Shown here piece by piece: positions 625 through 52,311 of a stretch of DNA of 64,000 nucleotides. A program made the position numbers and the translations under genes. A model generated the notes under the pieces. It saw only the letters and a list, made by a program, of their open reading frames with translations. It had not been told where the DNA came from and did not search any database. Numbering within the stretch: position 1 is the stretch's first letter; every line of letters starts with the position of its first letter. The DNA lies in contig NC_043017.1 of assembly GCF_006345805.1 (NCBI RefSeq), positions 14,012,001-14,076,000 on the forward strand. Direction: 5' to 3'. The stretch is from Octopus sinensis (Eukaryota).

Positions 625-2335
625 CAGAGCCACGCTAAAATTTTAGGAATGAAATTTAGGATTTCTTGGTTTTCTGTGAATCGATTTTGATAAAACTTTT
701 CCCAGCTGGTTTGCACACTATGGCAACACCATTTTTATGTTTCCATTATTCTGTGATATGTCCTTTCTTTTTTATTCCAGATTCGTCACTTTTTGGGTAA
801 ACCATGCTAATAGCTTTTGAATGAAAATAGCCCATCTAGACATTTTTTTTCTTCAGAAAATGAAGGGTAATGAGTATATATTTAACAGAAAACCATAATA
901 TTATAACATTTATTGACATAATGAATTATTTAGCCACATGAGTGCCAAGAAAGAAACGATCTGATTGTGGGACCTTGAAGACTGTGATTTTAGAAATATT
1001 GGCCACAAGTTACGAGGGAAACCTGAACAAACAAGTAAAGCCGTTTTTACTGCCTCCAGACTTCCTCTTGTACCGCAGACCATGAGAAATCGCATCCTCA
1101 GGACCATGGCTTCCGTGCAAGAACCTCCTCACAGGAGTTTGAGGCCTCATTGAGCCCAAAAGTACATGACGTTAGACGTGAGTTGTGTTCTGTTCACTGA
1201 TGAAACAATGGCAACCCTTGACGAACCTGACGGTTGGGCAAATGGTTAGGTCTGTTTTGGAGATGAGCATCACCAACATTTACGACGTCAACAACAGGAT
1301 AGAGGAGTCATGTTGTGGGCTGGGATCATTGGGGACAGACTTGTTGGCTTAGTCAAGGTGCCTAAAGAGGTTAAAGTGACTGCAGCCACCTGCTGAAGTA
1401 GGTCTTGAATCTTGGCTCGATGACACACTGCCCACCACTTCTAAGGAATCCCGTGTTCATGCATGACAATACTCCTTCCCATTCTGCCAGGACCATCCAA
1501 ACATTCCCAGAGTTTTACAGCATTCAGGGTGAAAGGTTGATGGTGTGGCTGCTAGCATCCCTGGATCTCAGCCCTATCAAAAATCTTTGGTCCATCATTA
1601 AACAAGATGTTTATGCCGATGGACGCCAATTTAAGTCAAAAGATGTCTTATGGGTGACCATCAAAGCTGCATCAGAGGCAGTTCAACCTGCTACTGTTAA
1701 GGAATTGACAGATTCCATGACTAATAGGGTTTTTGAAGTTATCCATCAAAGCGGCACTCATGTGGCTAAATAATTCATTATGTCAATAAATGTTATAATT
1801 TTACTGTTTTTTTTGTTAAACATAGACTCAATGTATGCTTAATAAGTATCATTTTCTGAAAAATAAAATGTCTATATAGGTGCAGGAGTGGCTGTATGTT
1901 AAGTAGCTTACTTACCAACCACCTTGGGCAAGTGTCTTTTACAATAACCTCAGGCCAACCAAAGCCTTGTGAGTGAATTTGGTAGATGGAAACTGAAAGA
2001 AGCCTGTCATATATATGTGTGTGTGTGTGTCTGTGTTTGTCCCCTGCCATCGCTTGACAACCAATGTTGATGTGTTTATGTCCCTGTAACCTAGGGGTTT
2101 GGCAAAAGAGACTGATAGAATAAGTATCAGGCTTACAAAGAATAAGTCCTGAGGTTGATTCGTTCGACTAAAAGTGGTGATCCAGCATGGCCGCAGTCAA
2201 ATGACTGAAACATAAAAGTATACAAGGATATAGGCTATTTTCATTCAAAAGCTATTAACATGGTTCACCCACAAAATGAAGAATCTGAAAGAAATAAAAT
2301 AAAATATAAAATAAATGGACATTACACAGAATAAT
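625..2335 (+). mobile_element. Degenerate Tc1-like element with long inverted ends
   Basis: Transposase fragments at about 947-1773 (VLFTDE, VMLWAGI, FMHDNTPSH, WLLASLDLSPIKNLWS). Segment 733-946 is an inverted copy of 1753-1878 plus 2228-2335. Confidence 0.8.
1876..2225 (+). mobile_element. SINE inserted in the Tc1 right end
   Basis: Shares the gatagaataagta-caggctta...ccagcatggccgcagtcaaatgactgaaaca tail with other copies (about 6335-6520 on +, 32760-32950 on -). It interrupts the Tc1 inverted repeat at a TA-rich site. Confidence 0.75.
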
Positions 2336-46097: not shown

Positions 46098-46596
46098 TTT
46101 TTTTCTATTTCTTAATTTTTAAAATTTTCTTTTCCCCTTGTTTTGACACCATCACAAACACAAAATATCTAGCTACTAAGAAACTCTCTCACTTTTTAAT
46201 CATTTCTCTTCATTTATTTAACTTGTATTATGAACATGCTAAACAATCCTTTTCTCTAAATTTTTAATCATTCATCATTGTTTACATTCGTCTTGTATTA
46301 TAAACATGCTCATCTTTTGATTTTCTTTTCTTCCATTTCACTATTGTCCTTTGCTGCTATTTCTATTCCTGGCTATAAGACTATACAACACATGGCTTCT
46401 GTCTCCAACCATCTTTCCTCTTGTTTTGACACCATCATATTGCAACACAAAATGACCAGCTGCTGCTAAGCTAAGAAATTCTCACACTTTCTAACCTTTC
46501 ATCATTTCTCTTCATTTATTCAACTTGTATTACTAACAAGCTAAACAATCCTTAAATTAACTTCATGAAGTTAGCCATTACTTCCATTTCTTTTCT

Positions 46597-48045
46597 GCGA
46601 TGCACCCACTCTTTCTCACGCCCACTACCAATACCGGAAATCCACTCTCTCGCATGCCGGTAATCTCATCTCTTTACCGTGAAATCTCTTCCTTCTTCCC
46701 TCATACTAAAACCTTCCACAATGCTCTACCTTACTTCTGCACCAGCAGATCTACATACTTCTGTCCCTCCCTCCCTTCCAAACCATCTTCCTCTCATCCC
46801 TACTTCTCCATCTATTCCCCACTCTCTCTCTCTCTCCAGGTAATGAAGGACACGGAGAGGGTCATAGCCCAACTAATTAGGGAGAGAGTCAGTTTAGATG
46901 AGATGCAGTTTGGGTTCGTGCCAGGGAAAAGCACCACTGATGCTATATTTCTGGTAAGACAGCTGCAAGAGAAATACCAAGACAAAGATAAACCTCTGTA
47001 CCTGGCTTTCGTTGACATGGAGAAAGCCTTTGTGGCAACAAAGGGCCTCTCTCTGAGTGAAAGGCAGATTGTTTGATACCTGTGTGCGAACAGCTATGCT
47101 GCATAACAGTGAAACATGGGCTATAACAGCTAAGGACATGTGTAGGCCTGAGAGAAATGAAGCCAGTATACTTCGCTGGATGTACAATGTCAGTATGCAT
47201 GTTCGACAGAGTGTAAGCATCTTGAGGGAAATGTTAGGCATAAGCGGAATCAGATGTGGTGTGGAAGAGAGATGACTGCACTGGTATGGTCATGCGATGT
47301 GTATGGACAAGGACAGTTGTGTAAAGAAGTGCCGATCTCTAACTGTAGAGGGAACCTGTGGTAGAGGTAGAGTCAAGAAGACATGGAATGAGGTGGTGAA
47401 GCATAACCTTTGAACTTTGAGCCTCACAGAGGCAATGACTAGTGATTGAGACCTTTGGTGATGTACTCTGCTTAAGAGGACCAGTCAAGCCAAGTGCAGC
47501 TGTGCTGGTGACATGTAAAAAAATCGGCCTTCGAATGTTGGGCCTCACTGAGGCAAAGTGGCTGAGTACCTTTTGAGCGTTGGGCCTGGTGGAGGCAAAG
47601 TGGCTGAGTTCCTTTCAAGCATTGGGCTTTATGGAGGCAAAGGGGCTGAGTTCCTTTTGAGAGTTGGGCCTCACAGAGCCGAGGTGGACGAGTTTCTACC
47701 AAAAGTGTTGGGCCTGATGGAGGCAAAGAGGCTGAGCTCCTTTCAAGTGTTGGGCCTCACAGAGGCAATGACCAAGACCTTTGGCATTATGTCGTGCTTG
47801 GGAAGAAGACCCCTCAAGCCAAGTAAAATCAGTCATGGCAGATACTGGTGTCATCCAAATGGTACCTGTGCTGGTGGCATGTAAAAGAACTCGTTACACT
47901 CTTGGAGGGGTTGGCGTTAGGAAGGGCATCCAGCCATAAAAAGCCATGCCAAATCAGACTGGATTCTGGCACAGCTTTCCAGCATGCCAGTCCAGTCAAA
48001 CCATCCAATTCATGCCAGCATGGGCAACAGACATTAGATGATGAT
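46597..48045 (+). mobile_element. Internally deleted RTE copy
   Basis: RT block QFGFVPG...EKAF is fused directly to the C-terminal KGLSL block, followed by the 3'UTR and gat tail. Confidence 0.85.
47530..47770 (+). repeat. ~42-bp minisatellite derived from the RTE 3' end
   Basis: About 6 units of gttgggcctcacagaggcaaagtggctgagttccttt; the core matches RTE gttgggcctcacagaggcaatg (54457). Confidence 0.85.
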
Positions 48046-49757: not shown

Positions 49758-51009
49758 CTGAAAACAGATGTAAAATTTCCCTTGAATAAAGATAATACTT
49801 ATGATAATTGATGTACTTTGGGAGGGCCATGTTAGCCAATAAACATCCACATTGGATGTAGTTCACTTCAGTTTTAATGTTAAGCAATCAATTTATTATT
49901 ATTGAGCTTTACAATTTCAGTAATTTCCTAAAATGTCCTTCACCAAGTATAATATCAGTTTCAATACAGGATTTAACACAATATTTTTACAAAATAAAAT
50001 CTAAAATAACAATTATAAAAACATGCATTAAAAGATTTAGTTTCATATATTGCTTCAGGTCACCTGAATTGCCTAAGATCAACAAAGTTGCCTCAGGACA
50101 ACTAAATTGTCTGAATAAAATTTGATAAACAGAGACTGTGTTGAAGCCTGTGAAAGGGACTGTAATTTTATGCAAAAGATTTGATGTTTGACAAGGCTCT
50201 TATACCACCATCCACCCCTTGGATGTCTTAAGTAGAATCTACTCTGTTACAAGTACTCAGGCCAAGATCAAGGGATCCAAAGATAAATTCATCCCTTTCT
50301 CTCACCAGTCCTGGAATCCCTGAAAAAAGCCATGAGTGTTGTCCTTTCTCCTCTCAATAAGTTATGTAAAAGTAAATGAATGAATAAATAAATAAATAAA
50401 TAAAGGCTGAATCTGAAAGATTTCCACAAATTATTGGTTGTCAAGCATTTTGAGTGATGTTGAGAGAATAGACTGCATTAGTTTCAATGTAATAAAAATA
50501 GATTAGACCAACCCAGTATATCAGTGATGTTTTAGAGAAGAAAGTAGAAGCCATACAAAGTTGACTATTGATGTAAGTAACGGGTGACAATAATTGCAAT
50601 GGATCATTAAGAAGGTTGTTTCACAGTCTTACTGGTCTGGGTTTGATCTCAGTGTGCAGCACCTGGGAATGGCTTGAACGACAACCTCAAGCCAACCATA
50701 TTACAGAGAGGAGCTTGGTAGATGAAGCGTTGTAGAAACCAGTTGAATGTCTATGTAGTGGTGGGGTGGCTGCCCCCTCGTTATCGAGTATGACCATTGC
50801 ACGAAGCTTAATCAATGTTGTTATGCAATGCCTGTGCAAAAAGATTTTCTTTTAATTGAGGAAAGGCTGTGCACTGAGTCAATCCCACTCACTAAGCAAC
50901 AGCAGCCATAATCTGAAAAGAAGAACAAATCAACATCATCGGTAATCACTGAGTTGCAGGTTTTATGTCGGAGTTATCCCAGTTACCTGAGTTACCATCT
51001 CCTAGAAGG

Positions 51010-51765
51010 CGTAACCTTCACCCAACGCCAAAATAAAGAACATTATTTCATCAAAAAATTTAGACCAAGTTTGAACACAATAGGCCAGGAATATAAAAAC
51101 AAAACATTGGTCTTCCGAAAAGAAAAATGAAATTCTACCACAACCACCATGATCACTACGACTGCTTCCACTATTACTACTACTACAACCACCGTGGTCA
51201 CTACTATTGCTGCTACGATCAACAGTCCTCTACTACTGCTGCTGCTACGGCCACAGCTTAACTGCTACAACCCCAACCACCACCACAGTTGCCAAAACTA
51301 CGACCAACAGTAACTGCTACTACTGCCATTTAAGCCACTGGTCATACTGCTGCTGCTAGGACTGCCACAACTTAGCCACTACAACCAATAAGCTGCTGCA
51401 ACCCCAACCACCACCACGGTTACTACTACTACGACCAACAATCACTACTGCTGCTACCATTCCATTGGAACACAAGGAAACTAAAAAACAAGCACGCGGT
51501 TCCTGTTGATACCACCAAGAAACAATAATGAACTTCTTTAACTATACTCAACTTGAAATTTATAGCTATTATACCTACTACCGACAAGACACCACCACAT
51601 GGATTCTATCGAGACCAGTAAGAAACAATTATGAACTTTTCTATTTCACTTTTTTTTAATAATATTTTTGATAAGGTTCGTTTTTTCAAGAACCGAAACA
51701 TGTAAAATTCATAAGAAAATTAAAATTTATCTAATATAGTGACGTTTTCAAACTTATTTTTTACA
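51010..51765 (+). mobile_element. Penelope-like 3' end (endonuclease tail, ACY-rich low-complexity tract, pLTR-like end)
   Basis: FTQRQNKEHYFIKKFRPSLN matches the GIY-YIG C-terminal E..I...P.LN motif. It is followed by a hammerhead motif and (TA)n. Confidence 0.72.
51664..51708 (+). ncRNA. Minimal type I hammerhead ribozyme, U3-A8 core variant
   Basis: AUUU-[UUGAUAA]-GGUUC(guuuuuucaa)GAACC-[GAAA]-CAUG-[UA]-AAAU. Stems I and II pair and stem III is palindromic. Confidence 0.7.
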
Positions 51766-51817
51766 AATATATATATATATATATAATCAAAATAAGCAAC
51801 AAGGATATCCAGAGGTA

Positions 51818-51906
51818 ATGCAGTACGATCATTTCATGCAGCTCCATTTAATTGAACAATGCAAACATTACATCAATTTAAAATGCAGAGCAATCTTCAG
51901 CTGCAC
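51818..51906 (-). ncRNA. Type I hammerhead ribozyme with extended stem II
   Basis: GUGCAG-[CUGAAGA]-long hairpin-[GAAA]-UGAUCG-[UA]-CUGCAU, with a 6-bp stem I and a near-palindromic stem III. Confidence 0.75.
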
Positions 51907-52061
51907 AAAGACATTGAGTTTAATTAAATTAAATTCTCGTCTGTTTCCAAGCAAGTCCTTCAAACATGAATTTAACAAATGGCTTGACATGTTTTTACAG
52001 CTGGACACATTAGTATAATTTTACCAAAGGAGATAGACAGAGAACATGTTGTACAACATGA

Positions 52062-52104
<43 letters not shown>

Positions 52105-52190
52105 TATAAGTATATCAGGAGTAGTTCATCATACAATTCAACAGTTTTTATTTTTTAAAATTTTAGGTACAATAAAAAGATTGATCTCAC

Positions 52191-52311
52191 CAACAGTTTT
52201 CCCTGTAAATGTAAACCGGTACCAACGACCAGAACCAAATTCAACACAGATAAGGGTAAGAGGATTAAACAACAAGCCTGTCTCTTCCAAAACCTCTCTT
52301 TTCACAGCATC
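52191..52311 (-). CDS. NUDT18: NUDT18-like exon 3 (second half of the Nudix box)
   Basis: tttttcag acceptor and gtgaga donor, phase 0/1. DAVKREVLEETGL...GRWYRFTFTG. Confidence 0.95.

What the first reader, a model, noticed from the sequence alone, without database searches (positions are those of the whole stretch)
51818..51906. Hammerhead ribozyme in sense orientation inside NUDT18 intron 3
Seen: intact CUGAAGA/GAAA/GUA core, a 6-bp stem I (GUGCAG/CUGCAU), a near-palindromic stem III (UGAUCG) and an unusually long stem II hairpin (AAUUGA/UCAAUU, GUAAUG/CAUUGU), on the strand transcribed for NUDT18 and about 285 nt past the exon 3 donor. Established: Penelope-like elements carry minimal type I hammerheads that can cleave as dimers. 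Inference: it could cut the pre-mRNA co-transcriptionally. Caveat: the first stem II position is a U-U mismatch.
Basis: partly seen in the sequence, partly recalled or inferred. Interest (0 to 1): 0.7.

Follow-up and report, generated by a model that had tools for sequence, protein, structure and literature searches.

The report
Leftover retrotransposon hammerhead in an intron
The hammerhead self-cutting RNA motif in this NUDT18 intron is real, but it is the tail of a Penelope-like jumping gene and one of over 10,000 related motifs in this genome, and it likely does little to the host gene; the odd part is a long arm carrying what may be a poly(A) signal just before the predicted cut.

Summary
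The type I hammerhead is there as described: minus strand, sense to NUDT18, in intron 3. It is not a host invention. It sits in a ~280-bp 3' stub of a Hydra-clade Penelope-like retrotransposon inserted between (TA)n tracts. Longer copies lead upstream to an RT/GIY-YIG reading frame with Hydra motifs. One pattern finds 10,685 long-stem-II hammerheads in this genome (control 18). Across subfamilies, stems I, II and III and an inner hairpin covary. The U·U 'caveat' is the usual Hydra junction (14 of 26 published rows). Cutting of the host pre-mRNA is unlikely to matter. The gene holds one motif and no partner, and this copy carries two uncommon changes that favour a misfold and weaken the dimer helix. 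The intron is spliced in 4 of 4 runs. Unusual feature: a 50-60-nt stem II insert with AAUAAA/AUUAAA ending 17-26 nt before the cut (16 of 18 representatives) and a U/GU-rich tract after it, which is poly(A)-site geometry. Direct tests of poly(A) use found nothing. The scan noted long-stem-II PLE hammerheads before in other genomes.

The parts
52191..52311 (-). NUDT18 exon 3 (Nudix box REVLEETG)
49758..52190 (-). NUDT18 intron 3, 2433 nt, GT..AG
   Evidence: splice joint in 4 of 4 runs from 3 studies
51782..52060 (-). 5'-truncated 3' stub of a Hydra-clade Penelope-like element (two pieces, 52060-51997 and 51931-51782)
   Evidence: 93-97% to other genomic copies over 51931-51782; 5' piece aligns with gaps; linked to RT/GIY-YIG frame in L064
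52062..52104 (.). (TA)n/(CA)n tract at the stub's 5' junction
51767..51785 (.). (TA)n tract at the 3' junction; family's common 'short' end ~38 nt past the cut
   Evidence: 20 of 50 window-family ends at +38; copies fetched twice are counted twice
51932..52002 (.). 71-bp insert inside the stub, identical to 52985-53055 in intron 2
   Evidence: 100% identity
51901..51906 (-). Hammerhead stem I, 5' strand GUGCAG
   Evidence: 4 of 6 pairs change on both sides across 18 representatives
51894..51900 (-). Core C3-A9, CUGAAGA
   Evidence: invariant except N7
51836..51893 (-). Stem II, 58 nt: U·U junction, basal UGC/GCA, long insert
   Evidence: (3 of 4 basal pairs with two-sided change)
51858..51874 (-). 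Inner hairpin GAUGUAA/UUGCAUU shared by subfamilies
   Evidence: 4 of 7 pairs with two-sided change, 86% paired
51847..51852 (-). AUUAAA hexamer ending 23 nt before the cut (possible poly(A) signal; untested)
   Evidence: AAUAAA or AUUAAA at 17-26 nt in 16 of 18 representatives
51825..51835 (-). GAA core and palindromic stem III (AUGAUCGU here; ACGAUCGU most common)
51818..51824 (-). A17, predicted cut 51824/51823, stem I 3' strand CUGCAU
51788..51802 (-). U/GU-rich tract after the cut, shared by subfamilies

Best explanation
The motif is the hammerhead at the 3' end of a Hydra-clade Penelope-like retrotransposon, left in NUDT18 intron 3 as a short stub between (TA)n tracts, and it likely rides there as a passenger with little or no cutting of the host pre-mRNA. 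Shown: sequence, copy family, element anatomy, covarying stems, splicing of the intron. Inferred from known PLE biology: an active master copy was reverse-transcribed from a start ~38 nt past the ribozyme, integrated into a (TA)n tract and was truncated after ~200 nt. In the element's own tandem or inverted transcripts the ribozyme would fold as a dimer through the 8-nt palindrome, probably helped by the element's protein, and process precursor RNA. In NUDT18 it has no partner, has since gained changes predicted to misfold it, and is spliced out with the intron.
For: 2,251 first-look candidates in the own genome; all 40 scored gave a near-full-length match at 94-100%, the window's own copy included. 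10,685 exact matches of the long-stem-II pattern against 18 for the reversed control; 1,698 with the same U·U junction, control 0. Walking upstream reaches L064: RT with PADKTG, a CNCR..C linker, GIY-YIG with CELC, ~2.9 kb of 3' UTR, the hammerhead, and an inverted 5'-truncated copy at the 5' end. Sister subfamilies have open frames of 842-947 aa with RW(K), DKT, CxCX5C, CxxC and CxH, the Hydra features of Craig et al.; ESM Atlas neighbours carry HTH_animal and RVT_1. Covariation: 13 of 21 pairs change on both sides, score 0.47 against 0.26 shuffled and at most 0.13 slid. This copy: C at 51841 (U in 27 of 31 fetched copies) gives an 8-bp misfold with P 0.63-0.68 and stem I P 0.25-0.31, against 0.97 for the family medoid; U at 51831 weakens the dimer helix from -10.0 to -6.4 kcal/mol; only 3 places in the genome share this 28-mer. 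One motif on the sense strand of the gene. Splice joint in 4 of 4 runs. The Anolis PLE hammerhead did not cut without protein and no reads ended at its site.
Against: No cleavage assay. Folding is predicted only, and several young subfamilies also score low stem I probabilities (0.00-0.36) or -6.4 dimer helices, so these numbers do not prove that this copy is dead. Thousands of other copies are in the RNA-guess runs and could be partners in trans. Spliced contigs cannot show whether part of the pre-mRNA is cut. Pfam did not detect the RT, and the GIY-YIG hit was below cut-off; clade placement rests on motif comparison, with no tree. A preprint abstract reports retrozymes excluded from introns and exons, suggesting genic hammerheads can be selected against.
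Confidence: 0.87

Rival explanations
1. Host-regulatory intronic ribozyme: the motif cuts nascent NUDT18 RNA before exon 4 is made and lowers mRNA output.
For: Sense orientation, intact core, 6-bp stem I; ~2.1 kb of intron still to be made after it. Precedent in the CPEB3 abstract. U·U is natural in this clade.
Against: Needs a dimer but has no partner in the gene; uncommon changes favour a misfold; it looks like any decaying copy of a large family; mature spliced mRNA in 4 of 4 runs; PLE hammerheads cut weakly or not at all alone.
Confidence: 0.05
2. The stub acts on NUDT18 as an intronic poly(A) site (AUUAAA at 51852-51847, U/GU tract at 51802-51788), giving a short three-exon isoform; ribozyme chemistry plays no part.
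For: Canonical geometry, kept across subfamilies.
Against: No poly(A) loose end among the 24 of 70 rows shown; no clear poly(A)-ended genomic copies in three patterns (0, 1 unrelated-looking, 0); the hexamer is paired in this copy's predicted fold; a site ~340 nt from a donor is usually suppressed by U1 (recalled).
Confidence: 0.04
3. Chance look-alike in AT-rich intron sequence.
For: No Rfam hit; unremarkable folding z-score.
Against: 0 hits in 100 resampled windows; 10,685 against 18 genome-wide; covariation in all helices.
Confidence: 0.01

Closest known systems
Hydra-clade C-terminal EN+ Penelope-like elements and their hammerheads (Craig et al. 2021, PMC8557442; seen: passages, section 11, File S1 Hydra sheet, File S2, supplement passages)
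   Same: DKT, RW(K), CxCX5C linker, CxxC/CxH in the endonuclease, (TA)n targets, inverted 5'-truncated partner, sense type I hammerhead near the 3' end, U·U junction (CUGAnGAU...UGAA), palindromic stem III.
   Different: Stem II insert of 50-60 nt with an inner hairpin and A(A/U)UAAA (Hydra loops in File S2 are 3-10 nt); elements 4.5-5.6 kb rather than mostly under 3 kb, with an Asn-rich linker and a 1.1-2.9 kb 3' UTR. Not Hydra-1_Obim: its hammerhead is different and its RT is clearly distinct by eye.
Minimal PLE hammerheads (Cervera and de la Pena 2014, PMC4209133; seen: parts 1-2 of 4)
   Same: Type I, palindromic helix III implying dimers, mostly solitary copies from truncated elements, some in opposite-strand pairs.
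   Different: Their highly conserved G10.1-C11.1 pair is absent here; helix III has 8 nt rather than none; stem II is much longer.
Anolis Poseidon (PAc) hammerhead (Frangieh et al. 2024, PMC11167929; seen: parts 1-2 of 4)
   Same: Genomic copies extend past the ribozyme and end at preferred sites, which fits internal initiation of reverse transcription.
   Different: Different clade; here the 'tail' between short and long ends is ~120 nt rather than 30-40 nt, and the ribozyme lies ~200 nt before the ORF rather than overlapping its start.
CPEB3 intronic ribozyme (Chen et al. 2024, PMC10919898; seen: abstract and outline)
   Same: Self-cleaving motif in sense in an intron.
   Different: CPEB3 is HDV-like, conserved in mammals, with shown activity and effect; this is one of thousands of transposon copies with no sign of host selection.

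Membership tests
Type I hammerhead ribozyme | Core C3-U4-G5-A6-N7-G8-A9, G12-A13-A14, A15.1-U16.1, H17 | tested here: met
   invariant in 18 of 18
Type I hammerhead ribozyme | Three helices, open at stem I, supported by covariation | tested here: met
   stem III pairs fully only as a dimer
Type I hammerhead ribozyme | Canonical R10.1-Y11.1 pair | tested here: not met
   U·U here and in 7 of 18 representatives; also in 14 of 26 Hydra rows of File S2, so a known clade variant
Type I hammerhead ribozyme | Self-cleavage after H17 | not testable with these tools
   Genomic footprint inconclusive: about 8 of 17 non-homologous starts at the cut against 3 loci among 12 matches at a control site
Hydra-clade PLE | DKT in place of DKG | tested here: met
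   PADKTG in L064, L094, L095, L100
Hydra-clade PLE | N-terminal RWK motif | tested here: inconclusive
   RIRWK in sister subfamilies L094, L095 (RWA in L100); the window's own subfamily copy L064 is truncated before it
Hydra-clade PLE | CxCX5C linker; C-terminal GIY-YIG with CxxC and CxH around E and N | tested here: met
   CxH is decayed in L064; absence of CCHH judged by eye only
Hydra-clade PLE | Insertion into (TA)n; sense hammerhead near 3' end; tandem or inverted partner copies | tested here: met
Hydra-clade PLE | Generally short (<3 kb) | tested here: not met
   4.5-5.6 kb; a tendency in the paper, not a strict criterion
Hydra-clade PLE | Placement in an RT phylogeny with published Hydra proteins | not tested
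   published sequences were not held as session proteins
Non-LTR retrozyme | Non-coding tandem units, each with a hammerhead | tested here: not met
   single stub of a coding element
Metazoan poly(A) site | A(A/U)UAAA 10-30 nt before a cut, U/GU-rich element after (definition recalled) | tested here: met
   16 of 18 representatives; per-sequence chance 1-15%, but the sequences are related
Metazoan poly(A) site | Polyadenylated RNA ends at the site | tested here: inconclusive
   none seen in contigs or genomic copies; contigs cannot show ends
Host-regulatory intronic ribozyme (CPEB3-like) | Orthologous conservation and effect on host mRNA | not testable with these tools
   no relative genomes held

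The most novel reading that the evidence does not exclude
This Hydra sub-lineage has built a poly(A) signal into stem II of its hammerhead, so one RNA element offers two exclusive 3' ends at nearly the same place: cleavage and polyadenylation to make mRNA for the RT protein, or ribozyme cutting or read-through to make the template for reverse transcription. Thousands of stubs, this one included, would then be portable intronic poly(A)/cleavage cassettes in host genes.
Probability: 0.18. Interest if true: 0.65.

Novelty: new variant of a known kind. Interest (0 to 1): 0.3.

Why it matters
For NUDT18 it probably does not matter. For mobile-element biology, the genome holds over 10,000 hammerheads of a long-stem-II form that the Rfam scan missed at this locus, in several subfamilies with open RT frames. 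That is a natural alignment for asking what PLE hammerheads are for, which is still open. If the embedded hexamer is a working poly(A) signal, it would show how an element with terminal repeats separates mRNA from transposition template.

Tried and rejected
Rfam at E 10 gave only microsatellite-driven miRNA hits and two weak unrelated ones. Reading the stub as a stand-alone SINE was rejected once copies were seen to extend to an ORF. An antisense ORF over the hammerhead was rejected: shared stops in all frames. RNAalifold recovered only 4 stem I pairs, so a named structure was counted instead; I derived that structure by eye from these same sequences, which favours it against slid controls. 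Pfam and PDB sequence searches did not identify the RT. No RNA holder was listed as RNA on record and all runs were contigs, so strand, ends and levels could not be read. The search for poly(A) loose ends and poly(A)-ended genomic copies was blank. The search for copies starting at the cut gave a weak, non-significant excess (about 8 against 3 loci). Other long-stem-II hammerheads in fetched loci (L009, L023, L109, L112) lack the hexamer, so it is not general. Lunse et al. 2017 was not held and is known only through a review passage (PMC6765202) and recall. PMC3365414 gave only a reference-list mention of exon tethering. Literature searches: Penelope + pLTR + polyadenylation signal, 1 review; hammerhead ribozyme + AAUAAA + retrotransposon + stem II, 0; hammerhead + octopus + Penelope, 4 listed, one relevant. 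These cover only the held library, and bioRxiv supplements were not seen.

Full report
Observation. On the minus strand the window reads stem I GUGCAG (51906-51901), CUGAAGA (51900-51894), a 58-nt stem II, GAA-AUGAUCGU-A (51835-51824) and CUGCAU (51823-51818). The gene is on the same strand: a Nudix-box exon at 52311-52191, a start-codon exon near 57938, and splice joints on both sides of exon 3 in 4 of 4 RNA-guess runs from 3 studies. The motif begins 284 nt into the 2433-nt third intron. A full descriptor gives 1 hit in the window and 0 in 100 resampled windows. Rfam does not see it and the folding z-score is ordinary.

It is a repeat. A search of the own genome gave 2,251 candidates; all 40 scored gave a near-full-length match at 94-100%, the window's own copy included. 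Copies share the window's 51931-51782 and often end at the same point, about 38 nt past the cut, in (TA)n; others run on to about +110 to +165. Several have an inverted truncated partner. The window copy runs from about 52060 to 51782 with (TA)n on both sides, and is interrupted by a 71-bp exact copy of 52985-53055.

Which repeat. Walking upstream led to L064, a ~5.6-kb copy plus an inverted 5'-truncated partner. It has a broken frame with PADKTG, RT motifs, an Asn-rich linker, CNCR..C, a GIY-YIG domain with CELC, then ~2.9 kb of AT-rich 3' UTR made of ~840-bp diverged repeats, then the hammerhead in sense. Its RT finds 149 scored relatives. Of 20 stretches fetched, 17 had a long-stem-II hammerhead and several had open frames of 842-947 aa or more. 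These show RW(K), DKT, CxCX5C, CxxC and CxH, the features by which Craig et al. define the Hydra clade (PMC8557442). That paper lists an octopus family, Hydra-1_Obim, with a different ribozyme; the genome looks octopus-like by this kinship, which is an inference. Pfam and PDB did not name the RT; ESM Atlas neighbours carry HTH_animal and RVT_1. No tree was built.

The ribozyme family. One pattern gives 10,685 exact matches against 18 for the reversed control; 1,698 have this copy's U·U junction. I aligned 18 representatives, picked by hand from 38 clusters of 103 unique matches; I left out unrelated, chance and internally deleted ones. For a structure named by eye, 13 of 21 pairs change on both sides: stem I 4 of 6, basal stem II 3 of 4, inner hairpin 4 of 7, palindrome 2 of 4; covariation score 0.47 against 0.26 shuffled. 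The U·U caveat is void as a sign of decay: 14 of 26 Hydra rows in File S2 have it (my count), as does a subfamily with an 816-aa open frame (L104). Whether U·U ribozymes cut well I could not find tested.

Does this copy cut NUDT18 RNA? Probably not to any effect. Stem III pairs fully only between two molecules, and only one motif lies on the sense strand of the gene. The copy has C at 51841 where 27 of 31 fetched copies have U; this creates an 8-bp pairing of the stem I strand and core with the stem II 3' arm (P 0.63-0.68) and lowers stem I to 0.25-0.31, against 0.97 in the medoid. It has U at 51831 where nearly all family RNA depth has C, which weakens the dimer helix from -10.0 to -6.4 kcal/mol. 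Against this, young subfamilies also show low stem I probabilities and -6.4 helices, so the folds are suggestive only. Published PLE hammerheads showed no monomer activity and low dimer activity (PMC4209133), and the Anolis one cut only with the element's protein, with no reads ending at the site (PMC11167929). The intron is spliced in all runs laid. A cut intron can still be spliced (exon tethering, recalled). On the other side, a preprint reports retrozymes excluded from introns (abstract, introduction and part of the methods seen), and CPEB3 is a precedent for a working intronic ribozyme (abstract).

The unusual part. Stem II holds AAUAAA or AUUAAA ending 17-26 nt before the cut in 16 of 18 representatives; the two without are single decayed copies of the window's subfamily. 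AUUAAA occurs in two separate groups of subfamilies, once by a one-base shift. A U/GU-rich tract follows 15-35 nt after the cut. This is the layout of a metazoan poly(A) site (recalled). The hexamer columns are among the best conserved of the insert and are unpaired in some constrained folds (L098, L100) but paired in others, this copy included. Five of 25 Hydra families in File S2 have such a hexamer just before stem I (my count). But the sequences are related and AU-rich, the hexamer could serve a tertiary contact, other long-stem-II hammerheads lack it, no poly(A) loose end was among the 24 of 70 rows shown, and no clear poly(A)-ended genomic copies were found. Three literature searches found no description of it. 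I put it at about 0.18.

Verdict. Real hammerhead, ordinary origin: a passenger stub of an undescribed Hydra-clade family, as far as the papers seen go. The long, covarying stem II with a poly(A)-like hexamer makes it a variant of a known kind; long stem II in PLE hammerheads was noted earlier by this scan in other genomes (unchecked notes). Interest 0.3.

Noticed in passing
window 51932-52002 and 52985-53055: A 71-bp stretch of intron 2 is copied exactly into the middle of the stub in intron 3, while the stub itself is 4-5% diverged from its family: a recent templated insertion or an assembly artefact.
   Followed up: partly
window ~50500-51130, + strand: 3' fragment of a different Penelope-like element (GIY-YIG end ...EHYFIKKFRPSLN; motif reading recalled, no Pfam hit) in the same intron, antisense to NUDT18; high summed contig depth at 50712-51128.
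   Followed up: no
L061 4900-7300, L063, L064 (oriented to the element): The window's subfamily has a ~2.9-kb AT-rich 3' UTR built of ~840-bp repeats about 70% alike, far longer than described Hydra elements.
   Followed up: partly
L094-L106, L112, L113: Several Hydra subfamilies keep open frames of 800-1100 aa with an Asn-rich insert between RT and endonuclease and near-identical copies, suggesting recent activity.
   Followed up: partly
L009:1036-1122, L023:1876-1975, L109:7886-7982, L112:8928-9025, L102 near 5498 and 5961 (oriented): Further type I hammerheads of unrelated families with 8-nt palindromic stem III and 15-55-nt stem II.
   Followed up: no
L095, L101-L104, L131 downstream of the cut: Copies end mainly at two zones, about +38 and +150-165 from the cut, so the optional 'tail' is ~120 nt, longer than the 30-40 nt described for other PLEs.
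   Followed up: partly
L146, L148, L169-L171: Very short fold-back insertions whose inversion point lies in or beside the stem III palindrome.
   Followed up: no
window 28280-31237, 53729-54523, 46561-47272 (+); 1402-1770 (+), 45779-45261 (-), 36053-35538 (-): Fragments of RTE-like LINEs and of mariner- and piggyBac-like transposases, named from recall of their translations.
   Followed up: no
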